A DNA stretch of 64,000 nt from Escherichia coli (GTDB taxonomy: Bacteria > Pseudomonadota > Gammaproteobacteria > Enterobacterales > Enterobacteriaceae). The notes beneath the pieces are model-generated. The model had not been told where the DNA came from. It saw only the letters and a list, made by a program, of their open reading frames with translations, and searched no databases. Where the stretch lies: NCBI RefSeq assembly GCF_051903065.1, contig NZ_CP178439.1; one strand, written 5' to 3'. Shown piece by piece: positions 4,777-56,775 of this stretch (position 1 is the stretch's first letter; each line of letters starts with the position of its first letter). A program made the translations under genes and the position numbers.

Positions 4777-5649
4777 TTACTTGGCTTTCAATGTTTTTTC
4801 TGGGAAGCCTTTTTTACCGTATTCACCGGTAAAGAGGTAATAATCTTTTCCGTTGATGGAGGCTGCAACACCCCCTGGAGTTGTTGTATTTGGGCTATCA
4901 GAACGGAAAATGATACCCGAAAAATCAGCGCTTGTTTCGTTTCCTTTAAATGGGATGAACACATAACGAATTACAGCGTAATCACCAGCGGGAAGGTTTA
5001 GCTGAGGAATTTCGGTTCCTGTTGCGGGGCGAATCGCCTGAAAGCTGTACATTGAATCTGTAGGGAAAACATCAGCATCAGGCTTAGAGGGCAGATCACA
5101 GGTACTCCATTTATTGACGACTGCCATATCAATTTTACATGTGGCCAGAGCTGCTTTCTGTTTTTCAGGGTTGTATCCAAATGAGGCCTGAGTTGCTTTT
5201 GTATGCTCAAAAACATACTTAGCTCCTTCACGTACCAAACTTTCATCATTGTAAGGCAATTTTTTTGGATTGGGGACGAACACTAGGTATTGATTGACCT
5301 GGATGTATTCGGCGTCAGAAGAACTGTACAAAGAGCCGAGGCTCATGATCCCAAAACCTTTTAGACCGCCTGTTACGTAGCCCATCGAACTATTGATGAG
5401 ATACTTAGAAAGAAAGTTGTCGGCATCCCCTCCAGGAGTAACCTCTTGCTCCTTAAAATTAACGTCGAAACCAGCAAACGAATAGGCATTCTTGGCGACA
5501 GAATCATTTGCTTTAGCATGCCAGTACTGGCCGTGACTGTACGCATTCAGAGCGGTGCCTGGCGTAGTGCCGGTGTCACCGGCACAACCCGATAGGGAAA
5601 AACCAATGACGACAGAAGAGACCAGAGATACTAAACGTAAAAGTTTCAT
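4777..5649 (-). CDS. Putative lipoprotein, function unknown
   Basis: 290-aa ORF; signal peptide with lipobox-like LSGC (LVSSVVIGFSLSGCAGD); no recognised catalytic motif. Confidence 0.6.
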   Translation of the reverse strand: MKLLRLVSLVSSVVIGFSLSGCAGDTGTTPGTALNAYSHGQYWHAKANDSVAKNAYSFAGFDVNFKEQEVTPGGDADNFLSKYLINSSMGYVTGGLKGFGIMSLGSLYSSSDAEYIQVNQYLVFVPNPKKLPYNDESLVREGAKYVFEHTKATQASFGYNPEKQKAALATCKIDMAVVNKWSTCDLPSKPDADVFPTDSMYSFQAIRPATGTEIPQLNLPAGDYAVIRYVFIPFKGNETSADFSGIIFRSDSPNTTTPGGVAASINGKDYYLFTGEYGKKGFPEKTLKAK

Positions 5650-5828
5650 TTAAAGCCCTTTTTGTAATGTCTTTTGGAGATGGAACCATTATTCCATAGT
5701 CACGCGTTTCACAAACAACCTGATTGCATAAAAAAGGAAAAAAAGTGATTTCCAGTAGAACCAGCAGTACACAAGAAAAGCGCTTTTATAAAAATGTATA
5801 ATTATTAAAACGAAGTAATGAGGTTGAA

Positions 5829-7613
5829 ATGGGTAAGCCAACAGAAGAGCAAAGACCTGTTATCGAGAATGCTAGCGCAAACAATATGGTGATAGCAGCG
5901 CCTGGATCAGGCAAATCATTCACCATGATAGAAGCGGTTATATCGATTCTCAAAAAGTATCCATATGCAAGAATCGGGATGGTGACCTTTACTCGCGCTG
6001 CAACAAACGCACTTGCAGCAAAGTTACAAAAGCGATTGAGCAAGAAGGATCTTGACCGGGTGCTGGTGGATACTTTTCACGGACTCGTTAAGAAGCAACT
6101 GGACATGATTCGCTGGCCGGGAAAGATGTTGATAGGGCCAGCACAGAGATCTGTCATTCACCGGGCTTTGAAAGAATCCGGTGTAACGATGAAGTTTGCT
6201 GAAGCTGAATTCGTTATTGATGCTATCGGCAGAGAAATGGATACGGATGTGATTTCAGTTCGGCATAACAGACAACAGATCCATTTATTTAATACCTATC
6301 AGGCGTTATGCCAGAAAGACCATGTGGCGGACCTCAATGCTCTTTCAAAATTTGTTGTCGGTCAAATGCATTCGGGAAAAATGCGCACGTTAGATTTGAC
6401 ACATTTGATAGTAGACGAAGTTCAGGATACTGACTCTATACAATTCTCATGGATAGCATTGCATACAAGAGCTGGAGTCTATACGAGTATAGTTGGAGAC
6501 GATGATCAGGCCATCTACTCCTTCAGATCCTCAGGAGGAGTCAAAATATTTCAACAGTTTGAAAAACACTTCAGACCTAACATATTTTACTTAAACACAT
6601 GCTTTAGGTGTGAACCTGAAATTTTAGAGGTGGCCGGAGCACTGATAGGAAAGAATGTTTACCGTTATGCCAAAGAGTTACGCTCGGCAAAAAAGGGAGG
6701 AGGAAAGGTCACTTTTCGTTCATATGTAGATATGGAGGAACAGATACAGGGTATTTTAAGCCTTATAAATCAGGATCCACATGGATGGGCAATTCTAAGC
6801 CGCAATAATGCTCACTTGGATGAGCTAGAAAGTTTGATCGAACAGCCAGTAATTCGTTACGGAGGTAAATCATTCTGGGATGAAAAAGAAACAAGCGATG
6901 TGTTAAGCCTTATGGCCTTTTTCCGACAATCAAATGATCCTCGCTTAATGAAGAGAGTATTGGCATTGTTTGGAGAACAGGAATCAGTTTTGGATGAAGT
7001 GGCATTGAGTATGAGAGGAAGAAAAGTTACTTTTGGCGACCTTGCCATCCCGGAGGACAGTTCTCTCGAAACAAAAACATTACATTCAAACTTCGTGCGC
7101 TTTACCCAGGAAAGTACTGATAAAGTTGAGATAGCAAAACGTTTCGCCAACCTTACGAAATGGATGGAATCGTCGTCAATCAAGATGAGGAGTAATAAAG
7201 GTACAGCAACCTTAACAAAAATTGCTTTAGACACTTGTAAACAGTGGGCAGAAAAGACTGGTTGGATGAATATGATCAATCGTGCTGCTGCAATGTCATT
7301 AGGCCCTAGGAAGAAGGACGAGGAATACAGCCCAGAGAAAGTAGTCCTATCAACCTTGCATGGTTCAAAGGGTCTTGAGTGGAATAAAGTAATAATAATG
7401 AGTTGTAATGCGGATCAGATACCAAGTAAAAGATCAGTTGGGGAGGAGGCAATAGAAGAAGAAAGACGTTTGCTTTATGTTGGATTTACGCGTGCAGAAA
7501 AGCAACTTTTTGTAATGTGGTATGGTGACCCTTCTTTCTTTTTAAGAGAATGCAGTGAAGAAAAGATAAAAGAAGCAGCTAATATTCGAATTTCTCCAGT
7601 TTATACAGAATAA
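5829..7613 (+). CDS. UvrD/Rep-family (SF1) DNA helicase
   Basis: Walker A AAPGSGKS near the N-terminus, DEVQD (DExx box), C-terminal TLHGSKGLEW and YVGFTRAEKQLFV helicase motifs; 594 aa. Confidence 0.85.
   Translation: MGKPTEEQRPVIENASANNMVIAAPGSGKSFTMIEAVISILKKYPYARIGMVTFTRAATNALAAKLQKRLSKKDLDRVLVDTFHGLVKKQLDMIRWPGKMLIGPAQRSVIHRALKESGVTMKFAEAEFVIDAIGREMDTDVISVRHNRQQIHLFNTYQALCQKDHVADLNALSKFVVGQMHSGKMRTLDLTHLIVDEVQDTDSIQFSWIALHTRAGVYTSIVGDDDQAIYSFRSSGGVKIFQQFEKHFRPNIFYLNTCFRCEPEILEVAGALIGKNVYRYAKELRSAKKGGGKVTFRSYVDMEEQIQGILSLINQDPHGWAILSRNNAHLDELESLIEQPVIRYGGKSFWDEKETSDVLSLMAFFRQSNDPRLMKRVLALFGEQESVLDEVALSMRGRKVTFGDLAIPEDSSLETKTLHSNFVRFTQESTDKVEIAKRFANLTKWMESSSIKMRSNKGTATLTKIALDTCKQWAEKTGWMNMINRAAAMSLGPRKKDEEYSPEKVVLSTLHGSKGLEWNKVIIMSCNADQIPSKRSVGEEAIEEERRLLYVGFTRAEKQLFVMWYGDPSFFLRECSEEKIKEAANIRISPVYTE
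7023..7033. repeat. AAAGTWACTTT palindromic motif copy 2
   Basis: AAAGTTACTTT inside the helicase gene (codons K-V-T-F). Confidence 0.6.
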
Positions 7614-7712: not shown

Positions 7713-8007
7713 CGCGTTAAGCGTTGATTTAGCCGTGAAAAGCGGCCAGCTTAAACAAGCTGTAAGACACCACCGGCAAAATGTCACCTTTGTCGCTGGT
7801 GCACTTCCCATGCCTGAAAAAGGCAATCTGAATTTACCAAACCGTAACTAATTTAGCTCCTCCTGGAGCTATTTTTGTTGCGTACTTCTAATGCCAGATA
7901 GTATAAATCAGGCGGTTCATAGCTTACGGGAGATGAATGACAGGCTTTGCCTTCGTGTTGAAACAAAAAATTGTTTCTTCCTTCTTACTATATATAGGTG
8001 ACCCCAA

Positions 8008-8880
8008 ATGTCTAAAAATAAAGCTCGCAGTAAAGCCCTTCATCAAACCTTTAGTGAAATTATTCCAGAGATGGATAAGGCGCTAAACAAACAGCTCTTA
8101 GAAGTTCTGATGAAATATACAGAACGTGATAATGAACTGATTGTTATTTTGAATGAGGACGGCCCAAATATCATTGAACTTAAGTCTCTTAAGCCTGTGT
8201 CTTTGTTGGCCGAAAAGCTTTCTGCTTATTCAAGCTATTATCATGTGGATGTTGTGGAGCTCGTGGTCAAGAAAATTGATTTCGAAGGAGCTTATAAGCT
8301 TCTTAAAGCTTCCCCAGATGTACCACTTTTTAAAAGCTTAACTGAACTGGATAAATATCTTGTTGAGGAGTTTGAAAAATACGGATTAAATTCATTTCTT
8401 GACGTGGATAATCTGGATTACTCACTTGAAAAAGCCAGTGAACTCAAAAATGAGCAGTTAATAAATTGGGTTTCGGACATCATTTGCAAACGTGAAAAAT
8501 TAACTTTACGTAAGCGTTTTGATGTCGCAGTAAAGGCCCACTACGAAAATGTAGAAAAAATGTATGATACCATTCGTCCGTTAATGAAAAAACTGGGTTT
8601 CCCAGAAGATCTCATGACGCACACCTTTAGTGAGTTAAGCGTTTTTGAAACTAAAGGATGGGACCATGCAATAAAATCGAAAATTGAGACTCTCGCTAAG
8701 CGTGAAACTCAATATTTAGATGATGCGGCTAAAGCAGAGAATCGACGTCTTGTAACAGAGAAGTTGGAGAACTCTTTAGCGATTGCACCAACTAAACCAA
8801 CAAGAAATTGGTTACATATTGCCGGAATTGCCTGTTTGGTAGTCTGCACGTTCATGTATGTAACTAATAAATTTATTTAA
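8008..8880 (+). CDS. Hypothetical protein, C-terminal membrane anchor (ORFan array)
   Basis: 290-aa ORF; hydrophobic C-terminal segment IAGIACLVVCTFMYV; followed by a hairpin element. Confidence 0.55.
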   Translation: MSKNKARSKALHQTFSEIIPEMDKALNKQLLEVLMKYTERDNELIVILNEDGPNIIELKSLKPVSLLAEKLSAYSSYYHVDVVELVVKKIDFEGAYKLLKASPDVPLFKSLTELDKYLVEEFEKYGLNSFLDVDNLDYSLEKASELKNEQLINWVSDIICKREKLTLRKRFDVAVKAHYENVEKMYDTIRPLMKKLGFPEDLMTHTFSELSVFETKGWDHAIKSKIETLAKRETQYLDDAAKAENRRLVTEKLENSLAIAPTKPTRNWLHIAGIACLVVCTFMYVTNKFI

Positions 8881-8884
8881 TCCT

Positions 8885-8916
8885 GTTAAGGGGGAACCCT
8901 AACGGGGCTTCTCTTT
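8885..8916 (+). terminator. Structured GC-run intergenic element E1
   Basis: GTTAAGGGGG-aa-CCCTAAC-GGGGC then T-rich tract, between the stop at 8880 and the start at 8938. Confidence 0.4.
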
Positions 8917-8937
8917 GAACAAATCGAGGAGCGGAAA

Positions 8938-9315
8938 ATGTCATATCTTGAATATATCAATGAAGTAAAAGTGTCCGGGATAGTTATCAGTGCTGTGGAG
9001 AAAAAAATGACTGACCAGAGTATAGGTTTGTTAATAAAGCTCAAAAATAGGATGAAGACAGAAGTTGATGGTGAAATCACTGAGAGAGAATTTTCAGTTC
9101 AAATCAAGGTGTCGCCTGAAATGTATTCAACCTGTTTCACTGGTATAAATCAGGGTGATGAGTTGATGGTCTCCGGTTATATTGTTGTCGATACTATTAT
9201 GATTGAAGGGAGAGAACATCCTCTTGACTACATGAGAGTGGTAGCAACAAGTAAGTTGGCTCACATACCTAAACCTCTAAAAGGTTTTGGACAAAGTAGC
9301 TTTAATCAGATCTGA
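8938..9315 (+). CDS. Hypothetical protein
   Basis: 125-aa ORF, ATG start, same strand as neighbours, followed by a strong hairpin. Confidence 0.5.
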   Translation: MSYLEYINEVKVSGIVISAVEKKMTDQSIGLLIKLKNRMKTEVDGEITEREFSVQIKVSPEMYSTCFTGINQGDELMVSGYIVVDTIMIEGREHPLDYMRVVATSKLAHIPKPLKGFGQSSFNQI

Positions 9316-9322
9316 CATTAAA

Positions 9323-9366
9323 CCCACCCTAAAGGGGAGAAATCCCTTCATGGGATTTCTCCTTTT
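9323..9366 (+). terminator. Structured GC-run intergenic element E2 (rho-independent terminator-like)
   Basis: CCCACCC..GGGG, then an 11-bp stem GGAGAAATCCC / GGGATTTCTCC with loop TTCAT, then TTTT; the CTCC in the 3' arm is complementary to the downstream GGAG ribosome-binding site. Confidence 0.55.
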
Positions 9367-9375
9367 GGAGTCCCC

Positions 9376-10353
9376 ATGAAACAAAAATTTAGGGCTACTG
9401 CAATAAGTAGTAATCAACTTAGTTTTTTTTCTATACTCGATATAGATGAAGATGAAATAACGCAAATAGTTGATTCACCCAAAGAGCATTTAAATGATGC
9501 TTACACGTCCGGATTAAACTTTAAATCAGAAGAAAGTAACATTTCTGAGATAAATTATGATTCTGAAAGGCGTGAAAATCACCTTTATGAAAAATCCAAA
9601 TTACTTAAAAATCAGATTTTGCATACAATTAATTTTGCAACAGAAACAGATTATCTATATACGGTTGAAGAATATAACCCAGATTTGGGTGGTCTGGTAA
9701 TAGAATGGACCCCTGAGGATGTGTATGTTGTTTTTCTATCCGCTATGGAAGAGTCTTTGGAAATCATTAAAGAACTAGTGTTGAGGAGAAAGTTATTCTT
9801 CAAAGATGACAATGGTAATATCACAGTGAATCCACTTTTAGAAGCTGAAACACGGTGGTATATGTCAAAATCATTTGAATACACTTGTTTATCTCATGGA
9901 CTTGATGCATGTGAATTTAGAGCGGAATTAAAATCATGGCTCTATTATCATTCGCATCGTTCGATTAGTGAAAACACGAAATTAGCTGAATGCAGGAATG
10001 ATGATGAAATCATTTTGCATGATTGCAATGACGATATGGGCTGGGACATCTTCTTTGATCAGGATTATTTAATGTCAGAAAAAAAACTGGCTGTTAAATG
10101 GACTGACAGGGAAATTATGGATGTTTACATAAAAGCTTTTAAATCCTCATTAGAGTTGTTTGACGAGCTTGTTTCATGTGATCTGTTAACTAAACGAAAC
10201 GCTTTTGGCAAGTTAGAAATCAATCCAATATTCGAAAATCATTTTGAATGGATCATGTCTGAAGCTTTTGAAATAGTGGGAAATCATCTTGGTTATAATG
10301 TGCCTCAAATCAGGAAACTGATGGCAACTATTTGCCAAATGAATCTCAAATAA
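9376..10353 (+). CDS. Hypothetical protein
   Basis: 325-aa ORF, ATG start 10 nt after element E2. Confidence 0.55.
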   Translation: MKQKFRATAISSNQLSFFSILDIDEDEITQIVDSPKEHLNDAYTSGLNFKSEESNISEINYDSERRENHLYEKSKLLKNQILHTINFATETDYLYTVEEYNPDLGGLVIEWTPEDVYVVFLSAMEESLEIIKELVLRRKLFFKDDNGNITVNPLLEAETRWYMSKSFEYTCLSHGLDACEFRAELKSWLYYHSHRSISENTKLAECRNDDEIILHDCNDDMGWDIFFDQDYLMSEKKLAVKWTDREIMDVYIKAFKSSLELFDELVSCDLLTKRNAFGKLEINPIFENHFEWIMSEAFEIVGNHLGYNVPQIRKLMATICQMNLK

Positions 10354-10410
10354 AATGCCACTGGCAAACATCTGCCAGAGGGCGGTGTTTGCATTTTACC
10401 GGAGTTAAAA

Positions 10411-11469
10411 ATGTCTAATGCCGCTATGAAGTTAAATGAAACATCTTCTGATGCTTATGAAAAATTAGAAGCTCTTCTTTCCCCGGATGTTATAAAGTTA
10501 AAACATTATGTGGATAAAGGTGAGTATCTTTTAGTTCTAGCAAAGGACCTTTTTGGTATTCCAGAAATGGATCCAAAGATGGCTGTGCCTGTTTTCAAAA
10601 CTAAAACCTCGTATCGAGCTCCGCTGAACAAAGACTACATACCAAATCCCCGAATACTTGAACAAGTGGTTAAACTGCTTATCAGTCCGGATATAGATTT
10701 AAGTGTGTGTCTTAAAGGTGAGTCCGGTTCTGGCAAGACTGAAATGGTAATGTACATTAGCCACATGATGAATTGGCCGCTGACAATTAAGCAGATCAAC
10801 AGCAATATTCGAGTTGATGAGCTTGAAGGTGAGCGCAGTCTTAATGGTGGTAATACAGGTTTTGTACACAGCGATTTGGTAACGGGATTTCGTAATGGTC
10901 ACCTCATTCTTCTGGATGAAGTGGACAAAATCGATCCTGATACGGCAGCAAAACTTCACATGCCCATTGAACGTAAGCCCTGGTCACTCAGTGCTAATGG
11001 TGGTGAGGTTATAACTGCTAATGGCTACACGCGATTTATTGGTACTGCAAACACAAACATGAGTGGAGGCGCTCGCCGGTTCGTTTCTTCTCAACGTCAA
11101 GATGCAGCTTTTATAAAGCGGTTCTTGATAGTTGAAATGGAGAAGCCCGACAAAGTTGCTTTAACCAATGTGCTTACTAAACGATATAGCTCTTTGCCTT
11201 TTCAGGTCATTGAGAAGTTCGTAAGAGTAGCGATTGCAGTAAATGACTCTGGTACAGAAGACAGTGTGATGGATATTCGTCAATTAGTAGCTTGGGTTGG
11301 CACGTCGATGACGTTAAAAACCTTTAGTCTTCTTGACACTTTCAAAATAGCTTTTGCTTCTGCTTTACCTTTACATGTGGTCGATCTTGTTCTTCAAGCT
11401 ATAGATCTTTCTCTTGGCGAAGACAAGGATAAATCGCTGGAGTATTTCACAGCAAAAAAGTCGAGTTAG
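10411..11469 (+). CDS. AAA+ ATPase, MoxR/CbbQ/CobS-like
   Basis: Walker A GESGSGKT and Walker B HLILLDEVDK; 352 aa; a vWA-domain partner lies two genes downstream. Confidence 0.7.
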   Translation: MSNAAMKLNETSSDAYEKLEALLSPDVIKLKHYVDKGEYLLVLAKDLFGIPEMDPKMAVPVFKTKTSYRAPLNKDYIPNPRILEQVVKLLISPDIDLSVCLKGESGSGKTEMVMYISHMMNWPLTIKQINSNIRVDELEGERSLNGGNTGFVHSDLVTGFRNGHLILLDEVDKIDPDTAAKLHMPIERKPWSLSANGGEVITANGYTRFIGTANTNMSGGARRFVSSQRQDAAFIKRFLIVEMEKPDKVALTNVLTKRYSSLPFQVIEKFVRVAIAVNDSGTEDSVMDIRQLVAWVGTSMTLKTFSLLDTFKIAFASALPLHVVDLVLQAIDLSLGEDKDKSLEYFTAKKSS

Positions 11470-11780
11470 ATGGGATTTGTTATGAAACCTCTGATATTTG
11501 TATCTCAGAGTTATCCCATCTTGAATTTAGTGCGTTTTTAAGTACGGATGGTGCTGCTACCATTGCTATAGCAAAAAACGGAACTAATTTTACTGGACTT
11601 ATGCAACTGAATAACGACTATTCTTTATTGTTTTATCATGATGGTAAAATAAATATGGAAGGTCTGATTAAACAAATGGAATTAAAAGGTTATATGTATC
11701 AGGGAGCAATGGGCAATGATGATGTTGTTGCTGAGTTTCCCGGTATTCTTTTAATTTCACCAGAGTAGCTTTAATATCAA

Positions 11781-11827
11781 CCCTATCGGGAAATCTTTCC
11801 CGTTGGGGAGGGTTTCCCCTTTTTTTT
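11781..11827 (+). terminator. Structured GC-run intergenic element E3
   Basis: CGGGAAA-tc-TTTCCCG hairpin, GGGGA-GGGTT-TCCCC hairpin, T8 tract; GGGTTTC is complementary to the downstream GAAACCC next to the start codon. Confidence 0.5.
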
Positions 11828-11837
11828 GGAGAAACCC

Positions 11838-12965
11838 ATGACTTTAAATACTTCAATGCTTAACAAAGTATCTGCAAAACAAATCTCTGAGAATTTTGCA
11901 AAATCATATCCAGATTTACTGGAAGGTGCAGTTATAACAAAAATTGAAATAAGTGGCTGTCAAGGATCGCGTCGAACCGATAAAATCGATTTGTCTTATG
12001 ATGGAGATGATATTACGGATCAAAAAAGCGTATCTAAAAGCGAAGTACGCTGGATTGACATAAAAGCCCTTAGCTTCAAAAGTACGATTACCAGCAGAAT
12101 ATCAACTCTTTGCTCACGCTTGTGCATCCGCTATAGCAATATGTGGATTTTACCAGTATCCAGTATGGAAGAGTTTCTGGAAGGGGCCCAAGAGATTGAA
12201 CGAGAGTTTCAGGCAGGTATTCAAAACGTTGTAGACAATTATGAGATGCATATTGAGGCTGAAAAAAATAGAAGCCCAAGAATGTCTTCTTTGATTGATC
12301 AGTTGAAATTAACTAAAGATGATTTCATAAAATCCTTTAGATTTAATATTGCTCACTTTATTCCTTTTACGCCTATTAGCGTTGAAGGTGATGAAACCCA
12401 GGACTACTATCAGGAACAATTGATAACAGATCTGGCAGAAGAAGCAATGAAGGTTTATGAAAAAATTAGCAAAAATAACAATTTGCGCTCAAGTACTATT
12501 GACCGACTGAAGCAAATGCAAAATAAGATCATTAGCTTCATGTTTATACATAAAGAGGCGGCAGTACTTGCAGAAGCTATAAAACACATAATGAATAATT
12601 TACCTAAAGGTGCCATTTCTGAACCTCGCGACGTTGCGGTGTTACAGCAGTGGTTTTATTTCATGAGTGATGCTTCAATGTTAAAGCGTATTATTTCAGG
12701 AGAGCAAAAGGTTACTGACTGGTTGGAATCTATTACCAGATCATTTAATCAAAGCTCACAAACAGAACCGAACGCGCTACAGAACACAGGTATTGAAGCT
12801 ATTTTAGATTCAACAAATGTGTTCCAGGTTGAACCTGTCGTAGAGAACGATATAAATAACAGCACGTTTTCAAACACTGATCCTGTAGCTGAACCTGAGA
12901 AATCAGTTTCGCAACAGGAAGACAATGTTGAAAATGGTTTTGATATCGAGCTCAAAGGCTGGTAA
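11838..12965 (+). CDS. Hypothetical protein
   Basis: ORF in track from 11826 (TTG); ATG at 11838 with GGAGAAACCC upstream preferred; 375 aa. Confidence 0.55.
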   Translation: MTLNTSMLNKVSAKQISENFAKSYPDLLEGAVITKIEISGCQGSRRTDKIDLSYDGDDITDQKSVSKSEVRWIDIKALSFKSTITSRISTLCSRLCIRYSNMWILPVSSMEEFLEGAQEIEREFQAGIQNVVDNYEMHIEAEKNRSPRMSSLIDQLKLTKDDFIKSFRFNIAHFIPFTPISVEGDETQDYYQEQLITDLAEEAMKVYEKISKNNNLRSSTIDRLKQMQNKIISFMFIHKEAAVLAEAIKHIMNNLPKGAISEPRDVAVLQQWFYFMSDASMLKRIISGEQKVTDWLESITRSFNQSSQTEPNALQNTGIEAILDSTNVFQVEPVVENDINNSTFSNTDPVAEPEKSVSQQEDNVENGFDIELKGW

Positions 12966-12984
12966 CTGTTTGCTTTATTAAAAA

Positions 12985-13027
12985 CCCCAGATGGGTACTT
13001 CACCATCTGGGTGAGTACCCCTTTTTT
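12985..13027 (+). terminator. Structured GC-run intergenic element E4, interleaved dyads
   Basis: CCCAGATGG/CCATCTGGG and GGGTACT/AGTACCC dyads interleaved (pseudoknot-like or alternative hairpins), followed by TTTTTT. Confidence 0.5.
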
Positions 13028-13042
13028 ATAAAGAGGTATTCT

Positions 13043-15055
13043 ATGAAATTAGATCTTAAATCATCACCGCGCCATATTAAGCGTTTACAGAATATAGCAA
13101 AAGTCATTAGCGGCTTAGGCGATGTAAGAGTTGTAATAGACGACAATACCAAAGGACCGTATTTTGATCCTGTAAATAAAGTTTGTGTTTTACCAAACGG
13201 CGATTATAGCGATGATGACTTTGTCAGTCTGATTGAAGGTTTTACCTGTCATGAAGCTGGTCATGGTCGCTATACCGACAGCGAGGTTTACAGTGACGCC
13301 TTTAATAGTGTTCTCAAGTCATCTGAAGGGTTTACACGCTTCGATGACGGAATGAATGCAGAGTTTGAGAGCCTCGCTGAGAAACGTAAAGCTTATAGCA
13401 GGGCAAAACGTCTTACCGGGCTTATAAATCTGTTCGATGATGTACAGATGGAAGAGAAGGTTGGTAACGATTATCCGGATGCAAAGCGGCGGCTTGCAGC
13501 CACTTACGCACTGATGGTTAAAGCCGGAAGGATGACTCCTGATATATCTTCTCGTCCGGAAAATCCTGTCCTATTTATTGAGTGGTATCTGCTTAACTCA
13601 TTGCGAGTAAAAGTCCTTCAGCAGGCAGGTCACAAAGAAACACTCGATCCGTTTTTTGACTATGCCCAAAAGATACTTTCTCCAGTAATTTCTGATGTTG
13701 AGGAAATTTTTCATGATGCTCTTGGTTGTGAAAATACTCAGGGCTGTGAATCCCTTGCTCGTAAGACCCTGGCTCTTTTAGAGAGACTGCGGGATGAGGC
13801 AAGGGAACAACAGCAGCAGACAGAGCAGGAGGAGCAGGAGGCATATGATGAATCCGAGACCGAGACCGAGACCGATACCGAATCAGAAGATAAATCGCTT
13901 GAGTCGACTGATAGTCGTGAGGATGATTCTGAGGACGATAGTGAAGGTCAGGCAGATACTTCCGATAACTCTGATCTTGCTCAAGAGGGATGTTCTGAGC
14001 CTTCAGAACTTGCTGAAGATAACGAGGGAAATAATGAACCCACCGGTGGCAATCCCACAGGTGATAACATTATTGAAGACGATACTGATGCGATTAACCC
14101 TTCCGAGAGTGAATCAGATGAAGCCAGTTCGACTAACGTTGAAGATGAAAGTAACTTTTCATCGGCTCAATGGGAGATACTGGCAGATTTGTTGGATGCC
14201 TTTCTTGGCAGTGATGAGGATAGCGAAGATTATCACGATGCTTTGGCTAAAGAGATTGAAGGTATTGCATCAAAAGTATCCGATGACGTGAAAGCCGAAT
14301 TCGGTGCTTCTGAATGGGATATCCCTGATCTCCTTATCGATTTGAATGTTTACAATGAGGCTTTGTCTCTGAGTCATTCAATCGGTAGCGACTTGTCTGT
14401 TTTACAGCAGGTTAAAATGCGTGGCCGAAACAAAACTCATGAGCGTGGAATTACCTTCGATGGAAATCGATTAATTCTGTCACCAATGGGAGTTCGTGAT
14501 GTCTTCAGAGCTCAAAGCGAATCTAAAAATAGAGGGCATGTTGGCCTCGTATTAGTTCGTGATATTTCAGCGTCAATGGCTAATGATGAAAGATATATTC
14601 ATGCCATTAAGTCAGATCTTGCTTTATCGATGGCCGCTGAAAGTTTGTCAAAAATGCATGTCTCCAATATAGTCTTTCCCTTCAAGGAAAGTGAATTTGA
14701 GATTATCAAAACGTTTGATCAAAGCGTTGAGGAATCTCTATCGAAATTCACTCTTGGATGTAAGGGTTATTATACCCCTACGGGATCGGCTTTAATGGCA
14801 GCTGTTGATCTGTTACTTGACAGCCAATTCGATAGGAAAATAATTTTTCTTATAACTGATGGTTATCCGAATAAATCGGAATTTACTATCGGCGAAGTTA
14901 TGGAAAAGGCTAAATGTAATGGAATAGAAATCGTTGGTGTTGGTATTAAGACTGATGAAATAATTGGTTTTGAAACGGACACTTTCGTAACAGTTGATGA
15001 TACTTCTTTATTGTCTATTGAAGTCAGTAAGCTAGTTCATCAAATACTTTCTTAA
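13043..15055 (+). CDS. vWA-domain protein with long acidic linker (CobT/ViaA-like partner of the AAA+ ATPase)
   Basis: C-terminal vWA/MIDAS motifs (VRDISASM, TPTGSA, ITDGYPN); central Asp/Glu-rich low-complexity stretch (ETETETDTESEDKS and onward); 670 aa. Confidence 0.7.
   Translation: MKLDLKSSPRHIKRLQNIAKVISGLGDVRVVIDDNTKGPYFDPVNKVCVLPNGDYSDDDFVSLIEGFTCHEAGHGRYTDSEVYSDAFNSVLKSSEGFTRFDDGMNAEFESLAEKRKAYSRAKRLTGLINLFDDVQMEEKVGNDYPDAKRRLAATYALMVKAGRMTPDISSRPENPVLFIEWYLLNSLRVKVLQQAGHKETLDPFFDYAQKILSPVISDVEEIFHDALGCENTQGCESLARKTLALLERLRDEAREQQQQTEQEEQEAYDESETETETDTESEDKSLESTDSREDDSEDDSEGQADTSDNSDLAQEGCSEPSELAEDNEGNNEPTGGNPTGDNIIEDDTDAINPSESESDEASSTNVEDESNFSSAQWEILADLLDAFLGSDEDSEDYHDALAKEIEGIASKVSDDVKAEFGASEWDIPDLLIDLNVYNEALSLSHSIGSDLSVLQQVKMRGRNKTHERGITFDGNRLILSPMGVRDVFRAQSESKNRGHVGLVLVRDISASMANDERYIHAIKSDLALSMAAESLSKMHVSNIVFPFKESEFEIIKTFDQSVEESLSKFTLGCKGYYTPTGSALMAAVDLLLDSQFDRKIIFLITDGYPNKSEFTIGEVMEKAKCNGIEIVGVGIKTDEIIGFETDTFVTVDDTSLLSIEVSKLVHQILS
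14148..14158. repeat. AAAGTWACTTT palindromic motif copy 4
   Basis: AAAGTAACTTT inside the vWA gene acidic region (E-S-N-F). Confidence 0.6.
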
Positions 15056-15063
15056 TAAACTCT

Positions 15064-15099
15064 ACCCAATCGGGGCAAAAGGCCCCGGTGGGTCTTTTT
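15064..15099 (+). terminator. Intergenic element E5, rho-independent terminator
   Basis: ACCCAATCGGGGC-aaaag-GCCCCGGTGGGT nested hairpin followed by CTTTTT. Confidence 0.6.
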
Positions 15100-15126
15100 G
15101 CTCCATGAAGGAATAAGGAGCAAAAT

Positions 15127-15348
15127 ATGACTCAGATAAAAACTTACCGTGTAGAACATGAAAAAGTCGGTGCGATGCATAAAGTCCGTATTTTCGGACG
15201 TGTTGGTGAAGTTATAAGCAATGATAGCCCTCAGGAAAGAATCTTCCGCGAAGTCACTATAGCGGAGGGTAATAGCCAGCAGGCTGCGTTACTTGTAGAT
15301 AACTACATACAGCGTCTTGAGAATAATGGCTTCACGACTGAAGCATAA
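15127..15348 (+). CDS. Small hypothetical protein (73 aa)
   Basis: ATG start with AAGGAG upstream; flanked by hairpin elements E5 and E6. Confidence 0.5.
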   Translation: MTQIKTYRVEHEKVGAMHKVRIFGRVGEVISNDSPQERIFREVTIAEGNSQQAALLVDNYIQRLENNGFTTEA

Positions 15349-15354
15349 ATGTTG

Positions 15355-15377
15355 AGGGCCCCCGGGCCCTCTTTCTT
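15355..15377 (+). terminator. Intergenic element E6
   Basis: GAGGGCCC-CC-GGGCCCTC perfect hairpin followed by TTTCTT. Confidence 0.55.
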
Positions 15378-15461
15378 AAATTCTGCGTTGTGGGTTTCTC
15401 CCTGTCTTCTGCACCGCAGAAGGCATTGAGAAACTCACAATGCCAGATAAGAGAGATCATC

Positions 15462-16694
15462 ATGACTTATGCATCCCCGGCTCTTCGTCGTAATCCACAG
15501 GAAGTATCTGAACACTTTATTAAACTCGTTCATGCTCGAATTGCTGAAGTGTCTGGCTGGAAGTATATATTCGAAAGAATACCTGCTTTCAAAGACGCTT
15601 GTGCAAAAGCCCCGAGCCAGGTTCCTTGCCCGTTTACTGGCGCAGGGAAATCGAAGTTTCGTTTCCGACAAAAAGACCTTTATACCGGATGTGCGATCCA
15701 TAATGACTTTCCGGTAAATGAGTTTTGCGACGGAATTGATGTTCTGGCGAAATATTATGAATTAAGTAAAACGCAGACTTGCAAAAAGATTCTCTCAGAT
15801 TTTTTCGGGATGGATCTGCATGCTCCGTTAACTGACGCCGACATTGAAAATGAACGACGCTATAAATCAGCAGTTCGTGCCACAGAAACTCTTGACCGAG
15901 AGGAAGTGGCAAAGCGAATGCGAAAACTTGATGTGATGTATCACTATACCGGTGAAATCAAGCCTAATACTCCTGTTGCTTTGTACCTCCGTAATCGTGG
16001 GATCTCCCGCTTACTGAGTCACTTACCAAAGGATTTAGGCTTTAATAACCGGATCTACTATTGGGATAAAGATAAGCAGAAATCGATTATCTATCCGGGA
16101 ATGATTGCGATCTATCGTGACACCCGAGGTCGGCCTCTGACTATTCATAGAACATACGTAGACAAAAATGGTGATAAGGCACCTGTAGAAAATCCAAAGC
16201 TGATGATGAAGCCTCCTGCCGATATGACAGGTGGCTCAATTCAGTTGTTTGACCCTCACTATGATTCAGGTAGTTCGACCTGGACACTGGGAGTGGCTGA
16301 AGGGATCGAGAACGCGCTTTCTGTTGTAGAAGCGACTTCAACACCATGCTGGGCAGCCAGCTCCGCATGGTGCCTTGAAAACGTTACTGTTCCTGATTTT
16401 TTACTGCCTCCGCCGGATGTAAAATCTATAAACTTTTATATCTGGGCGGATAAGGATATTGCTAACTCACAAGGCACTCGTGCCGGTATTGAAGCTGCTC
16501 AGCGACTTCAAAGCCGCATGGTTGAGTTTTTGGCTAAACGATATCCCGCATCAAAGCTGACAATTGAAGTCTTCGAACCAGCACAAGATATTCCTGATGG
16601 GAAAAAGGGTATCGACTGGAACGATGTTCTCCAGTTAACAGGGCAGGATGGATTCCCGATTCACTGGGCTCCTGAATGTCTTAATCAGCTGTAA
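15462..16694 (+). CDS. DNA primase-like protein (zinc-ribbon plus Toprim)
   Basis: N-terminal CPFTGAGKSKFRF..GCAIHNDF resembles the primase-helicase zinc-binding motif; Toprim-like VAEGIENALSV and WADKDIANSQG (DxD); track ORF starts at GTG 15390, ATG 15462 preferred. Confidence 0.5.
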   Translation: MTYASPALRRNPQEVSEHFIKLVHARIAEVSGWKYIFERIPAFKDACAKAPSQVPCPFTGAGKSKFRFRQKDLYTGCAIHNDFPVNEFCDGIDVLAKYYELSKTQTCKKILSDFFGMDLHAPLTDADIENERRYKSAVRATETLDREEVAKRMRKLDVMYHYTGEIKPNTPVALYLRNRGISRLLSHLPKDLGFNNRIYYWDKDKQKSIIYPGMIAIYRDTRGRPLTIHRTYVDKNGDKAPVENPKLMMKPPADMTGGSIQLFDPHYDSGSSTWTLGVAEGIENALSVVEATSTPCWAASSAWCLENVTVPDFLLPPPDVKSINFYIWADKDIANSQGTRAGIEAAQRLQSRMVEFLAKRYPASKLTIEVFEPAQDIPDGKKGIDWNDVLQLTGQDGFPIHWAPECLNQL

Positions 16695-16701
16695 CAACGA
16701 T

Positions 16702-16733
16702 AACTCCCCCGCTTTTTGCGGGGGGGGTTATCT
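16702..16733 (+). terminator. Intergenic element E7
   Basis: CCCCCGC-TTTTT-GCGGGGG hairpin immediately after the stop at 16694. Confidence 0.5.
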
Positions 16734-16773
16734 TATCAATATTATATTTTAAAATTGTATTGATAAGATAACC
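16726..16773. promoter_or_regulatory. 14-bp perfect inverted repeat flanking a 20-bp AT-rich spacer
   Basis: GGTTATCTTATCAA (16726-16739) and TTGATAAGATAACC (16760-16773) around TATTATATTTTAAAATTGTA; sits in a 270-bp gene-free interval. Confidence 0.4.
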
Positions 16774-16904
16774 GCTTTCCTTCGTGATAATTACCTGCCT
16801 TTAAGGTCTTTTCACGGCTGAGATGCTTGCTCAGTTAAATAAATGTGCGGTACTACTGGCTATGGTCGGTTGTATGACATGGTTATTCCATAAACTATTA
16901 AAAC

Positions 16905-16930
16905 CCATAACGGGAGTATTACCGTTATGG
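16905..16930. promoter_or_regulatory. 9-bp inverted repeat, candidate operator upstream of the gene at 16965
   Basis: CCATAACGG-gagtatta-CCGTTATGG, 35 bp upstream of the ATG. Confidence 0.35.
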
Positions 16931-16964
16931 TGATGCTCGTCGTTTTACATCGGAGAGCATTTTA

Positions 16965-25149: not shown

Positions 25150-25686
25150 ATGAGTACTCAAAAGCAACTTTCCAGAACAACCGGCACTGAACGTATGTTT
25201 AAGGAAGAGCTGGCGTTATCCTTAATTTGTTGGGTTTTCACCAGTCCATTTACCAACTGGACCGATAAAGTCTTCAGTGGTATTGAAGTTCCGTCTGAAG
25301 GACCGTCAACATTACTGGGTGAGGCTGAAAAATTCTTTCGTTTTGTCGTTAATGAAGAAGGCTACGACGCAGGAAGGGCTGCTCTTGGTCTTGACCTATG
25401 TTGTTTTTCACTTCCGTCGTGTTTGTTCCCGGACGCTGCCCTGTCTGAGGAAGAGGTTATGAGTAAGTTAACCGGAGAAGTTATCCATGGGATTCTTCTT
25501 TCCTTACCTGAATTTATTGATATGCCAGAAGTGCTCGCTTACCAGGTCAGGGATGAAATTCTTGCTTTTAACACTCGCTGTGGAGACGGGATCTTTCATG
25601 GTTGGAACACGGCTTCAGAATTGTGGAAGTTTGAAATCTTTCCCCGCACCACCATCATGATGCAGCATACTTCGGCAATACATTAA
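25150..25686 (+). CDS. Hypothetical protein
   Basis: 178-aa ORF. Confidence 0.5.
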   Translation: MSTQKQLSRTTGTERMFKEELALSLICWVFTSPFTNWTDKVFSGIEVPSEGPSTLLGEAEKFFRFVVNEEGYDAGRAALGLDLCCFSLPSCLFPDAALSEEEVMSKLTGEVIHGILLSLPEFIDMPEVLAYQVRDEILAFNTRCGDGIFHGWNTASELWKFEIFPRTTIMMQHTSAIH

Positions 25687-25702
25687 AATTAGGCGGGGCA
25701 GA

Positions 25703-26149
25703 ATGCATAAAAAACTTTTTCTTCTCGAATGGAAACCCTGTCAGAGCCGCGTATGGGCCGGTTGGATGGCCCTGTGGTTGACTATCAGTTTTCTGATGTT
25801 ATCTGCCTTGCTTATGACAGATCATCTCCTGAACAAAGTCATCCTGCCGCCAACATGGTTGTTGATCTGGTTTTCGCCAATGCTGGGGTTTTTGATAAAA
25901 GTTCGCGTCGTCGAAACTCAACATTTCCTGGAGCATGACCTCTGTGTTGCAGGTTTCTCTTTTTACCGCTGGAAGAGGTTAGTTTCTCCCGGGCTTTGGT
26001 CAGTTGACTGTATAAATGGTCGTTTTCGCCTCAATCGGATCACCCAGGTGGGTAAGACTATCCACTATCCATGGCGTCTCCATTATCATCCTTTGTTCAT
26101 GAGCCCTATCGAACATAAATCGCATGCTGTGAAAGCTGTTTCAAAATGA
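25703..26149 (+). CDS. Hypothetical membrane protein
   Basis: 148-aa ORF with two hydrophobic segments. Confidence 0.45.
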   Translation: MHKKLFLLEWKPCQSRVWAGWMALWLTISFLMLSALLMTDHLLNKVILPPTWLLIWFSPMLGFLIKVRVVETQHFLEHDLCVAGFSFYRWKRLVSPGLWSVDCINGRFRLNRITQVGKTIHYPWRLHYHPLFMSPIEHKSHAVKAVSK

Positions 26150-39113: not shown

Positions 39114-39135
39114 GACATCCCCTTAATTAATAAAA

Positions 39136-39774: not shown

Positions 39775-40200
39775 ATGTAATTCCTTCTTAAGAGATCGGA
39801 AGAGGAGAGTAGTTTCAGGAAGAGGCCAGAGTTTGTAGATTTGATAAAACGGCACGACATCTGTCGGGTGGAGATTAAATACTCAGAAGCGGCATTAAAG
39901 AAATAAGTTAACCACCATTGAATTACCGACATGTGAATGGCCTCTTATCAGAGAAAAAAATTCAGACCGTACTGGAATATAAATTTCTGAAAAAAACTCC
40001 GGCAAAAATAAACTTTCTTATGTATGAAAATCATCATACATCACAGATCTGCATGAATGGAGTGTAAATCGCCCAAAGATTGATGTGTAGCACAAGAGGA
40101 TGTCAAGACACCAGGTTTTGTAGGCAGAAAGGCGCTGCTGACATTGCGGGAGGAGAATAGATCAAAACTCCGTCACGCAGATACAGAGGTGAAATATGAC

Positions 40201-53497: not shown

Positions 53498-53524
53498 TAC
53501 GCACAGTTTTCGCATGGTTAAAGG

Positions 53525-53560
53525 AGCTCTACAGCAGCTTAATACTGTAGAGCCTTTGTT
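53525..53560 (+). terminator. Hairpin terminator after terF
   Basis: GCTCTACAG-cagcttaata-CTGTAGAGC followed by CTTTGTT. Confidence 0.5.
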
Positions 53561-54341: not shown

Positions 54342-54390
54342 ACTTAGTCCTTAAGAAAATTTGTCATCGGAAAATAACACGAAGCCTGCA

Positions 54391-54805: not shown

Positions 54806-56775
<1,970 letters not shown>

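What the first reader, a model, noticed from the sequence alone, without database searches (positions are those of the whole stretch)
10411..16694. AAA+ ATPase, vWA protein and zinc-ribbon/Toprim primase-like protein as a candidate module
A MoxR/CobS-like AAA+ ATPase (10411-11469), an ORFan (11838-12965), a vWA protein with an acidic disordered linker of more than 100 residues (13043-15055), a 73-aa protein and a primase-like protein (15462-16694) lie consecutively on one strand. AAA+ plus vWA pairs usually act as chaperone-like remodelers. Linkage to a primase-like protein is not a combination I recognise, and could reflect a plasmid establishment or DNA-processing machine.
Basis: partly seen in the sequence, partly recalled or inferred. 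Interest (0 to 1): 0.55.

Follow-up and report, generated by a model that had tools for sequence, protein, structure and literature searches.

The report
Plasmid CobS/CobT-like ATPase–protease establishment module
This stretch of an IncHI2 resistance plasmid carries a conserved but uncharacterised gene set (a motor ATPase, a DUF3150 protein, a predicted protease fused to a vWA domain, and a primase-like protein) whose ATPase relative in IncC plasmids helps incoming plasmid DNA escape host restriction enzymes.

Summary
The genes are real and lie where stated, but three descriptions need correcting. The "ORFan" is a DUF3150 protein. The "vWA protein" is a CobT-family protein whose N-terminal domain keeps an invariant HExxH zinc-protease motif that true cobaltochelatase CobT has lost. 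The primase-like protein is DUF7146+Toprim with a degenerate zinc ribbon.

The window is an IncHI2 plasmid (MOBH/MPF_F). ATPase, DUF3150 and peptidase-vWA form a conserved trio in IncHI1/HI2/HI1B, IncC, IncT, pAQU1, SXT, other plasmids and some viral contigs, usually among DNA-processing genes. One element fuses the exonuclease to the ATPase. The primase-like gene is a recurrent but optional neighbour: adjacent in IncH, SXT and several others, 25–40 kb away in IncC.

The linkage is old (SXT s067–s072) and never explained. The IncC ATPase homologue vcrx089, with vcrx090, gives anti-restriction activity in the recipient, but IncHI2 has no vcrx090. Deleting the homologues costs at most 10-fold in SXT transfer.

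Best reading: an AAA+/MIDAS/zincin remodeller-protease that helps establishment in new hosts, next to a conjugative primase. The mechanism is inferred. New here: the intact HExxH, an SSB-like acidic-aromatic C-terminus in 132 of 150 DUF3150 proteins, and the fusion. Verdict: new variant of a known kind, moderate interest.

The parts
10411..11469 (+). MoxR/CobS-class AAA+ ATPase (352 aa). It is the homologue of IncC vcrx089 and SXT s067.
   Evidence: AAA_5 9e-28. PDB relatives are midasin, NorQ and CobS. Walker A G103/G106/G108/K109, Walker B E170/D172, N214, R237 and R290 are invariant in 12 lineages. It is 27% identical to the IncC ATPase, E 2e-19.
11601..11768 (+). 55-aa ORF annotated as hypothetical, of uncertain significance.
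   Evidence: Annotated in RefSeq. No family hit. IncHI1 has a different small ORF at this position.
11838..12965 (+). DUF3150 protein (375 aa): a structured core (residues ~1-310) followed by a disordered acidic tail ending in Trp.
13043..13795 (+). N-terminal zincin-like (HExxH) domain of the CobT-family protein (residues 1-251).
13787..14180 (+). Acidic, low-complexity linker (about residues 249-379), variable in length and sequence between lineages.
   Evidence: Read from the translation. It is the poorly aligned, variable region in A1.
14180..15055 (+). Middle region and C-terminal vWA domain with a complete MIDAS motif.
   Evidence: VWA 7.8e-7. D507-x-S509-x-S511, T578 and D606 are invariant. 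The profile hits CobT (9uka_G), NorD and integrin I-domains.
15127..15348 (+). 73-aa conserved small protein, function unknown.
   Evidence: Conserved in IncHI1 (66% identity, dN/dS 0.24) and in Klebsiella IncHI1B (30%, E 3e-7). No family hit.
15462..16694 (+). Primase-like protein: degenerate zinc-ribbon remnant, then DUF7146, then Toprim_3 (410 aa).
   Evidence: Pfam. PHROG 510 'DNA primase' 1.4e-27. E280-G-I-E283 and D330-x-D332 are conserved, and only one Cys and one His are kept in the ribbon. The homologue in L023 has a bona fide Zn_Ribbon_Prim.
16704..16726 (+). Strong GC-rich hairpin followed by T-rich sequence; a likely terminator closing the primase-like gene.
   Evidence: 9-bp stem with 8 G-C pairs; the best terminator-like site in the region.
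8008..10353 (+). Three co-directional conserved genes of unknown function (290, 125 and 325 aa) between the TrhI helicase gene and the ATPase gene. They may belong to the same transcription unit.
   Evidence: Conserved in IncHI1 and Klebsiella IncHI1B. dN/dS 0.13-0.20. No family or PDB hit. Not related to vcrx090/s088.

Best explanation
This is the IncHI2 version of a conserved three-protein machine found on MOBH-type conjugative elements and some phages. The three parts are a CobS-like MoxR AAA+ ATPase, a DUF3150 protein, and a CobT-like protein that joins a zincin-type metallopeptidase domain to a MIDAS-containing vWA domain through an acidic linker.

By analogy with other MoxR-vWA pairs, the vWA/MIDAS domain would hold a target protein, the ATPase ring would remodel it, and (specific to this family) the HExxH domain would cut it. 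DUF3150 would act as an adaptor or decoy through its acidic, aromatic-ended C-terminal tail. That tail resembles the C-terminal tip of SSB, the hub for DNA-processing proteins.

The most likely biological role is to help the element establish itself in a new host by disarming or removing host proteins that attack or block incoming DNA, such as type I restriction enzymes. The adjacent primase-like protein is probably the plasmid's conjugative primase, which primes the complementary strand. It is a frequent neighbour serving the same life-cycle step, not a subunit of the machine.

Shown: the domain identities, the conserved motifs, the conserved gene order, the co-occurrence with DNA-processing genes, and (from the literature) the anti-restriction phenotype of the ATPase homologue in IncC. 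Inferred: proteolytic activity, the targets, the adaptor role of DUF3150, and that the IncHI2 genes act as the IncC ATPase does.
For: - Domains and intact catalytic motifs.
- HExxH is invariant in all mobile-element homologues but lost in genuine CobT. The zincin-like fold is nearest to M48/M56 gluzincins and minigluzincins.
- The trio is conserved across IncHI1/HI2/HI1B, IncC, IncT, pAQU1, Shewanella, Aeromonas and Pseudomonas plasmids, a TrfA plasmid, other metagenomic elements and viral contigs.
- A YqaJ-exonuclease::AAA_5 fusion occurs in L029/L030.
- Neighbours are SSB, RecT/Bet, YqaJ/Exo, helicases, DNA polymerase and RadC.
- DUF3150 ends in F/W/Y in 132/150 representatives, usually after acidic residues. 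vcrx090/s088-like proteins have the same tail, and a canonical DDDIPF SSB sits in the same operon in L029.
[quoted passage not shown] Deleting vcrx089-90 raises restriction by EcoBI/EcoKI 424-/906-fold (PMC11602122). The SXT operon holding s067-s072 is activated by the transfer regulator SetCD (PMC4344509).
- Purifying selection acts on every gene.
Against: - No experiment exists for any IncHI gene of this module.
- IncHI2 has no detectable vcrx090 partner (hhalign probability <1%), so the tested two-gene system is only half present.
- In the IncC TnSeq, depletion was confined to vcrx089-093. The DUF3150 and vWA genes were not needed in that assay.
- Deleting SXT s067, s068 or s070 lowered transfer at most 10-fold (PMC2791158).
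- Rts1 conjugates although IS2 splits its peptidase-vWA gene, and deleting the block left transfer at 0.21 of wild type.
- An HExxH site could bind metal without cutting protein.
- IncHI2 has no bet/exo/ssb homologue in the window, so the SSB-hub idea rests on other elements.
- No PADLOC model gives a meaningful hit.
Confidence: 0.5

Rival explanations
1. Accessory factor of single-strand-annealing recombination and repair. The ATPase/vWA/DUF3150 set loads, unloads or protects the element's SSB-RecT/Bet-Exo machinery, or host equivalents, at DNA ends. It would contribute to double-strand-break repair and recircularisation, not attack host defences directly.
For: The trio is interleaved with ssb-bet-exo in IncC, pAQU1, Rts1, SXT, L023, L027 and L029. 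Exonuclease and ATPase are fused in L029/L030. SSB-like tails occur on DUF3150 and s088-like proteins, and even on IncC Bet and Exo. [quoted passage not shown]
Against: IncHI1/HI2/HI1B, Shewanella, Aeromonas and Pseudomonas plasmid loci and the viral contigs have the trio without a detectable RecT, YqaJ or SSB nearby. In IncC the ssb-exo deletion had no effect on transfer without CRISPR targeting, whereas the vcrx089-90 deletion did, so the phenotypes are separable.
Confidence: 0.2
2. One reading: the ATPase and vWA proteins are chaperones that assemble or activate the primase-like protein, forming one priming/replication-establishment complex.
For: The primase-like gene lies next to the trio in IncHI1/HI2/HI1B, Shewanella, Aeromonas (upstream, so linkage survives rearrangement), SXT, L023 and L027. 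A homologue is present somewhere on IncC and Pseudomonas plasmids too.
Against: Adjacency is lost in IncC, pAQU1, Rts1, the Pseudomonas plasmid and L029, and is absent from all viral contigs. DUF3150 and peptidase-vWA are far more tightly coupled: the gap is under 60 bp in 20 loci and 1.3 kb in L027. A protease domain is not expected in a primase chaperone.
Confidence: 0.1
3. Assembly chaperone for the transfer apparatus or for virions, like the MoxR-vWA pair needed for tail development in an archaeal virus and the peptidase-vWA/MoxR pairs proposed for jumbo-phage virion assembly.
For: The module lies between transfer-gene blocks in IncH, IncC, SXT and Rts1. The jumbo-phage paper describes MoxR plus vWA-with-N-terminal-metallopeptidase pairs and proposes virion assembly (PMC7824862).
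Against: Deletions barely affect transfer. In the viral contigs the neighbours are DNA polymerase, exonuclease, helicase and methyltransferase genes, not structural genes. The IncC ATPase acts in the recipient.
Confidence: 0.07
4. A cobalt chelatase (CobS/CobT) carried as an auxiliary metabolic gene for vitamin B12 synthesis, as database names such as 'porphyrin biosynthesis' or 'CobS' suggest.
For: Weak hits to CobS (TIGR01650, 34 bits), PHROG 249 'porphyrin biosynthesis' (2.5e-30), CobT Pfam and CobT_C.
Against: The scores are far below the curated cut-offs (34 vs 558 bits; 33 vs 779 bits). No CobN or other cobalamin gene is annotated or called beside the trio in any neighbourhood examined. 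The family keeps HExxH, which genuine CobT lacks. The context is DNA metabolism.
Confidence: 0.02

Closest known systems
IncC/pVCR94 hde operon: vcrx089 (AAA_5+CbbQ_C ATPase) and vcrx090, the 'vcrx089_090' anti-restriction system of AntiDefenseFinder, followed by ssb-bet-exo and then DUF3150 and vWA genes
   Same: The ATPases are homologous (27% identity, same catalytic residues). IncC also has DUF3150 and peptidase-vWA genes downstream, in the same transcript at least as far as vcrx094. Both are MOBH/MPF_F backbones, with the module next to traN/trhN.
   Different: IncHI2 lacks vcrx090 and ssb-bet-exo. Its ATPase shows no Pfam CbbQ_C hit. It has the primase-like gene adjacent. The published system is defined by 089+090 only, and DUF3150 and the vWA protein have never been assigned a role.
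SXT/R391 ICE backbone genes s067 (CobS-like), s088, s068, s069, s070 (CobT?), s071 (radC), s092, s072 ('primase?'), s073
   Same: The same order of ATPase, s068 (the DUF3150 counterpart, by position only), vWA and primase-like genes, annotated as shared with the S. Typhi IncHI1 plasmid. The genes lie within the SetCD-activated operon.
   Different: SXT has ssb-bet-exo upstream and radC inserted. I mapped its genes by annotation and position only, because I had no sequence. Deletion phenotypes are 10-fold or less.
Aerobic cobaltochelatase CobS-CobT (with CobN)
   Same: A CobS-like AAA_5 ATPase, and a CobT-like protein with the same three-part plan: N-domain, acidic linker, and vWA/MIDAS.
   Different: No CobN is annotated or called in any neighbourhood examined. 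The scores are far below the equivalog cut-offs. The N-domain here has an intact HExxH, which genuine CobT lacks. The gene context is DNA processing.
Other MoxR-vWA remodellers: NorQ-NorD, CbbQ-CbbO, RavA-ViaA, midasin/Rea1
   Same: An AAA_5 ring plus a MIDAS domain tethered by an acidic linker. Sequence matches to midasin, NorQ, CbbQ and NorD.
   Different: Those systems mature or remodel specific enzymes or ribosome precursors, and have neither a peptidase domain nor a DUF3150 partner.
Jumbo-phage MoxR plus vWA-with-N-terminal-metallopeptidase pairs (Iyer et al. 2021, PMC7824862)
   Same: The same architecture in concept: a MoxR ATPase next to a vWA protein carrying an N-terminal metallopeptidase, on a mobile element.
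   Different: Homology to those phage proteins was not tested here. They were proposed to act in virion assembly. DUF3150 is not mentioned.
Conjugative-plasmid and P4-type Toprim primases (RP4 TraC, ColIb Sog, P4 alpha N-terminal domain)
   Same: The Zn-ribbon/DUF7146/Toprim plan, the PHROG 'DNA primase' hit, and the conserved Toprim Glu and DxD. The motif EGIENA resembles the EGYATA motif of those primases (my recollection of Strack et al. 1992, not checked here).
   Different: The zinc ribbon has lost its ligands in IncH. There is no helicase domain. Primase activity is untested.

Membership tests
MoxR/CobS-class AAA+ ATPase (AAA_5) | AAA_5 domain with Walker A, Walker B, sensor-1 Asn, and arginine finger/sensor-2 | tested here: met
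   PF07728 9e-28. G103/G106/G108/K109, E170/D172, N214, R237 and R290 are invariant in 12 lineages.
MoxR/CobS-class AAA+ ATPase (AAA_5) | C-terminal CbbQ_C lid domain | tested here: inconclusive
   Pfam does not detect it in the IncHI2 protein. It is detected in homologues, and the alignment runs through that region.
Cobaltochelatase CobS/CobT | Scores above the curated equivalog cut-offs | tested here: not met
   TIGR01650 34 bits against a cut-off of 558; TIGR02442 33 bits against 779.
Cobaltochelatase CobS/CobT | CobN partner and cobalamin gene context | tested here: not met
   No cobN or other cobalamin gene is annotated or called beside the trio in any neighbourhood examined.
Cobaltochelatase CobS/CobT | CobT-type N-domain sequence at the HExxH position | tested here: not met
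   Genuine CobT has ADAYALRHRFHD or similar. This family has HE[AVGLCS][AGS]H.
vWA/MIDAS domain proteins | DxSxS...T...D metal-ion-dependent adhesion site | tested here: met
   D507, S509, S511, T578 and D606 are invariant. VWA Pfam 7.8e-7.
Zincin (HExxH) metallopeptidases, gluzincin type | HExxH motif on a helix following a small beta-sheet | tested here: met
   H70-E71-x-x-H74 is invariant in all homologues examined. In the model, strands 29-51 are followed by helix 58-77, which carries the motif.
Zincin (HExxH) metallopeptidases, gluzincin type | Third zinc ligand (Glu/Asp/His) downstream | tested here: inconclusive
   Candidates are D133 (invariant) and E137 (nearly invariant) in the N-x-x-E-D-x-R-I-E motif. 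I could not inspect the geometry.
Zincin (HExxH) metallopeptidases, gluzincin type | Significant fold match to known zincins | tested here: inconclusive
Zincin (HExxH) metallopeptidases, gluzincin type | Zinc binding and peptide-bond hydrolysis | not testable with these tools
   Needs biochemistry.
vcrx089_090 anti-restriction system | vcrx089-type ATPase | tested here: met
   tblastn 27% identity, E 2e-19, to the IncC gene. It aligns throughout.
vcrx089_090 anti-restriction system | vcrx090-type partner protein | tested here: not met
   No BLAST or hhalign similarity between the vcrx090/s088 family and any neighbouring IncHI gene family.
vcrx089_090 anti-restriction system | Protection from type I restriction on entry | not testable with these tools
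   Requires mating assays.
DnaG/Toprim-type primase (P4 alpha, TraC, Sog type) | Toprim catalytic Glu and DxD | tested here: met
   E280 and D330 are invariant; the DxD (D330-x-D332) is kept in four of five lineages and is DxE in Shewanella. Toprim_3 6.6e-12.
DnaG/Toprim-type primase (P4 alpha, TraC, Sog type) | Four-ligand zinc ribbon for template recognition | tested here: not met
   Only one Cys and one His are conserved in IncH and Shewanella, and Pfam gives no Zn_Ribbon_Prim hit. The feature is met in the L023 homologue.
DnaG/Toprim-type primase (P4 alpha, TraC, Sog type) | Primer synthesis | not testable with these tools
   Needs an enzyme assay.
Lambda Red-like ssb-bet-exo recombination module | RecT/Bet annealase and YqaJ/Exo exonuclease genes in the locus | tested here: not met
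   HMMs built from six such operons find nothing in the 64-kb window.
Known anti-phage defence systems (PADLOC) | A match to a defence-system model | tested here: not met
   Only weak generic P-loop hits, E >= 2e-4.

The most novel reading that the evidence does not exclude
The trio is a new kind of counter-defence machine: an AAA+ motor, a MIDAS clamp and a built-in zinc protease that find and proteolytically disarm host nucleases, such as type I restriction enzymes, on incoming DNA. DUF3150 uses an SSB-mimicking acidic-aromatic tail to place the machine at single-stranded DNA/SSB hubs or to act as a decoy. As a corollary, the CobT subunit of vitamin B12 cobaltochelatase descends from such a protease-vWA protein and has lost its catalytic site.
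Probability: 0.2. Interest if true: 0.8.

Novelty: new variant of a known kind. Interest (0 to 1): 0.55.

Why it matters
IncHI2, IncHI1, IncC and SXT/R391 elements are major carriers of multidrug resistance, including mcr-1 and carbapenemases, and they are known for crossing species barriers. The ATPase of this module is already linked to a 400- to 900-fold protection from type I restriction in IncC, by an unknown mechanism. The published system is defined by two genes only.

This analysis shows that the ATPase belongs to a wider, strongly conserved set containing a predicted protease-vWA protein and a DUF3150 protein with an SSB-like tail. That gives the unexplained anti-restriction activity concrete, testable parts: HExxH, MIDAS and tail mutants.

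It also suggests that annotations such as 'CobS/CobT' or 'porphyrin biosynthesis' on plasmids and phages are misleading, and that cobaltochelatase CobT carries a dead protease domain.

Tried and rejected
- **Defence system.** PADLOC gives only generic P-loop noise.
- **Cobalt chelatase or auxiliary metabolic gene.** Rejected on curated cut-offs, the absence of CobN, and the HExxH difference.
- **s063 as the ATPase.** My first guess was that SXT s063, whose deletion costs 100-fold in transfer, was the ATPase. It is the divergently transcribed lipoprotein-like gene; the ATPase is s067.
- **DUF3150 fold.** A confident model gives only generic helical-bundle matches, so nothing can be inferred from it.
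- **Hidden vcrx090/s088 counterpart among IncHI2 neighbours.** None found.
- **125-aa upstream protein as SSB-like** (my by-eye impression). No support from NCBIfam, PHROGs, PDB sequences or my SSB HMM.
- **Small ORFs replacing DUF3150 in viral contigs L015-L020.** They do not carry the acidic-aromatic tail.
- **Word-seeded homologue searches with the N-domain.** Both returned only fragments.
- **Aligning to the solved CobT N-terminus by sequence or Foldseek.** This failed. The question was settled with database CobT sequences instead.
- **Literature.** I found nothing on these genes in IncH plasmids, and only one paper anywhere mentions DUF3150.

Full report
**What the window is.** The 6.3-kb segment is 100% identical to more than a thousand IncHI2 plasmids of Salmonella, E. 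coli, Enterobacter and relatives. These plasmids are typed MOBH/MPF_F. The segment has no near match among phage genomes. In the annotated plasmid pMTY18780-1 it lies just downstream of the Tra2 transfer genes (trhF ... trhU, trhN) and the helicase gene trhI. It is part of a long run of genes on one strand.

**Checking the observation.** All five ORFs exist at the stated coordinates.
- The ATPase is an AAA_5 protein (9e-28). Its nearest solved relatives are midasin, NorQ and CobS. Walker A, Walker B, sensor-1 and the arginine residues are invariant in twelve lineages.
- The "ORFan" is a DUF3150 protein (3.7e-23). An exhaustive profile search finds about 2,000 clusters of this family at 50% identity.
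- The primase-like protein is DUF7146 plus Toprim_3, and matches a phage "DNA primase" family at 1.4e-27. Its Toprim glutamate and DxD are conserved. The supposed zinc ribbon keeps only one cysteine and one histidine across lineages, so it is a degenerate remnant. A distant homologue has a bona fide primase zinc ribbon.
- All genes, including the three upstream and one downstream, are under purifying selection between IncHI2 and IncHI1, with dN/dS 0.04–0.24. dS is saturated for several genes, so these values are rough.

The N-terminal 250 residues of the vWA protein contain HExxH (H70, E71, H74) and a second motif, N-x-x-E-D-x-R-I-E.
- These are conserved in every homologue I collected from plasmids, metagenomic elements and viral contigs.
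- The domain folds with high confidence (pLDDT 93, pTM 0.90): a small sheet followed by the HExxH helix.
- Foldseek gives nothing significant. Its highest-probability local hits are again minimal gluzincins. Fold support is therefore moderate.
- Ten of nineteen N-domains hit Pfam CobT, so the protein belongs to the CobT family.
- Proteins that databases name cobaltochelatase CobT align across this domain and keep the MIDAS motif, but they have lost HExxH (for example ADAYALRHRFHD). Distant mobile-element relatives, including some from Firmicutes, keep it.
- The plasmid and phage family is therefore a CobT relative with an apparently live zinc site, and B12 CobT carries a degenerate copy of the same domain.

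**How conserved the module is.**
- The same gene string occurs in IncHI1 pHCM1 (79% DUF3150 identity) and in Klebsiella IncHI1B/FIB plasmids (40%). It also occurs in an Aeromonas MOBH plasmid (about 20%), where the Toprim gene lies upstream and is split by an IS.
- The ATPase–DUF3150–vWA trio, without an adjacent Toprim gene, is present in IncC, pAQU1, a Pseudomonas MOBH plasmid and IncT Rts1. A Shewanella plasmid has the trio with the Toprim gene.
- Unrelated metagenomic elements show the same set: L023 (a TrfA-type plasmid), L027, L029 and L032.
- Several viral contigs carry the trio, or an ATPase plus peptidase-vWA pair, beside DNA polymerase, exonuclease, helicase and methyltransferase genes.
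- The peptidase-vWA gene follows DUF3150 in 21 loci. The gap is under 60 bp in 20 of them and 1.3 kb in L027. L024 and L025 have only 500–600 bp of downstream sequence and show no vWA ORF.
- Wherever enough upstream sequence is available, the ATPase lies within 4 kb.
- The Toprim protein has homologues on IncC and the Pseudomonas plasmid, but 25–40 kb from the trio.
- The trio is therefore the core, and the primase-like gene is a frequent but optional neighbour.

**Links to DNA processing.**
- In IncC, pAQU1, Rts1, SXT, L023, L027 and L029 the trio is interleaved with, or adjacent to, recT/bet and yqaJ/exo; an ssb is also annotated in all of these except pAQU1 and L023.
- In L029/L030 the exonuclease and the ATPase are one continuous 746-residue protein.
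- IncHI2 has no such recombination genes in the 64-kb window, so the association is frequent but not universal.

**A tail motif.**
- 132 of 150 DUF3150 representatives end in an aromatic residue (F 102, W 25, Y 5), against a 6.7% aromatic background. The aromatic end usually follows acidic residues (…DEDCFF, …DDDCFF).
- The IncHI2 protein ends …ELKGW. The DUF3150 model shows a structured core and a disordered tail.
- The vcrx090/s088-like proteins encoded beside the ATPase in IncC, pAQU1, L027 and L029 end the same way. So do IncC Bet and Exo. The SSB of L029 ends in the canonical …DDDIPF.
- This resembles the SSB C-terminal tip that docks many DNA-processing proteins (established knowledge). 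The functional meaning here is inference.

**What is already known.**
[quoted passage not shown] Several are noted as shared with the S. Typhi plasmid. That operon is activated by the transfer regulator SetCD.
- Deleting bet, exo, s067, s068 or s070 lowered SXT transfer at most 10-fold.
- In Rts1 the peptidase-vWA gene is split by IS2, and deleting the block left transfer at 0.21 of wild type.
- In IncC pVCR94, vcrx089 (AAA_5+CbbQ_C) and vcrx090 confer evasion of type I restriction. The defect is complemented in the recipient but not the donor. ssb-bet-exo repairs CRISPR-Cas breaks. vcrx094, which is DUF3150 by position, is co-transcribed. TnSeq depletion was confined to vcrx089–093.
- In pKAZ3, deleting vcrx089-90 raised restriction by EcoBI and EcoKI 424- and 906-fold.
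- AntiDefenseFinder lists vcrx089_090 as an anti-defence system.
- None of the papers I read that deal with vcrx089-090 or the SXT and Rts1 homologues discusses DUF3150, the peptidase domain or the primase-like gene. I found nothing on IncH.

**Interpretation.** The most likely reading is an AAA+/MIDAS/zincin remodeller-protease with a DUF3150 adaptor. It would serve establishment of the element in a new host, most plausibly by neutralising host proteins that attack incoming DNA. The neighbouring gene would be the plasmid's conjugative primase.

I give this general statement about 0.5. The specific protease-of-restriction-enzyme mechanism gets about 0.2. The main weaknesses are these:
- IncHI2 lacks vcrx090.
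- DUF3150 and the vWA protein were not required in the one screen done.
- Deletion phenotypes are mild under laboratory matings.
- Peptidase activity is unproven.

The rivals are a recombination accessory (0.2), a primase chaperone (0.1), an assembly chaperone (0.07) and a cobalt chelatase (0.02). They are set out separately with their evidence.

**Novelty and score.** The linkage itself is old, and part of it has a known phenotype, so this is not a new kind of system. It is a variant of the vcrx089-type module with a different partner set. The analysis adds three features not described in the literature I could search:
- the intact HExxH in a CobT-family protein;
- the SSB-like tail of DUF3150;
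- the exonuclease–ATPase fusion.

Interest is 0.55.

Noticed in passing
window 7854-16938 (+ strand intergenic gaps: 7854, 10372, 11788, 15069, 15354, 16704, 16914): GC-rich terminator-like hairpins are enriched (25 found against 9.5±3.3 in shuffles). They sit in almost every gap between the co-directional genes of this AT-rich region. They may be partial terminators or mRNA stabilisers.
   Followed up: no
window 9376-10353: The 325-aa protein upstream of the ATPase appears to contain an internal duplication. It matches the Klebsiella 273-aa homologue in two registers (residues 111-308 and 242-312 both align to 61-...). It has no family or structure hit.
   Followed up: partly
window 37837-39882 (- strand): Two further vWA ORFs weakly hit my peptidase-vWA HMM through the vWA part only. 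The identical plasmid annotates a TerY-C protein, a PP2C phosphatase and a helix-hairpin-helix protein further downstream, at about window 52,500-56,700. Whether these two vWA ORFs are TerY-type was not checked.
   Followed up: no
L021 (Rts1) 11030-14192; L004 (Aeromonas pK520-KPC) 5022-7468: Module genes are interrupted by insertion sequences in some plasmids: IS2 splits the peptidase-vWA gene of Rts1, and an IS3-family element splits the Toprim gene of the Aeromonas plasmid. The module is therefore dispensable for maintenance in those hosts.
   Followed up: partly
L019 5865-7901: In this viral contig the ATPase domain starts at about residue 400 of a 679-residue ORF. The N-terminal extension has no similarity I could recognise and includes a coiled-coil-like stretch. 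It may be another fusion partner.
   Followed up: no
L006 (IncC) 11541-13603: IncC Bet and Exo also end in acidic-aromatic C-termini (…EGAEGSYY, …EEVETFYW), like DUF3150 and vcrx090. This hints at a shared docking site for several proteins of the operon.
   Followed up: partly
L001 34763-35725 (about window 25,170-26,135); L003 16496-17455: IncHI2 and the Klebsiella IncHI1B plasmids both encode a Tus-like 'DNA replication terminus site-binding protein' in the same downstream gene string.
   Followed up: no
L003 10102-12066 (Klebsiella peptidase-vWA) and homologues P0180, P0195: The acidic linker is highly variable in length and is built of short repeats in some lineages (for example runs of DGSDDS in Klebsiella; variants of 709-719 residues among IncH relatives). 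This suggests rapid expansion and contraction.
   Followed up: no
window 1-64000: GC content rises from about 36-42% in the first 25 kb, which holds the transfer-adjacent backbone including this module, to about 50-54% beyond 34 kb. That is consistent with a mosaic of backbone and acquired regions.
   Followed up: no
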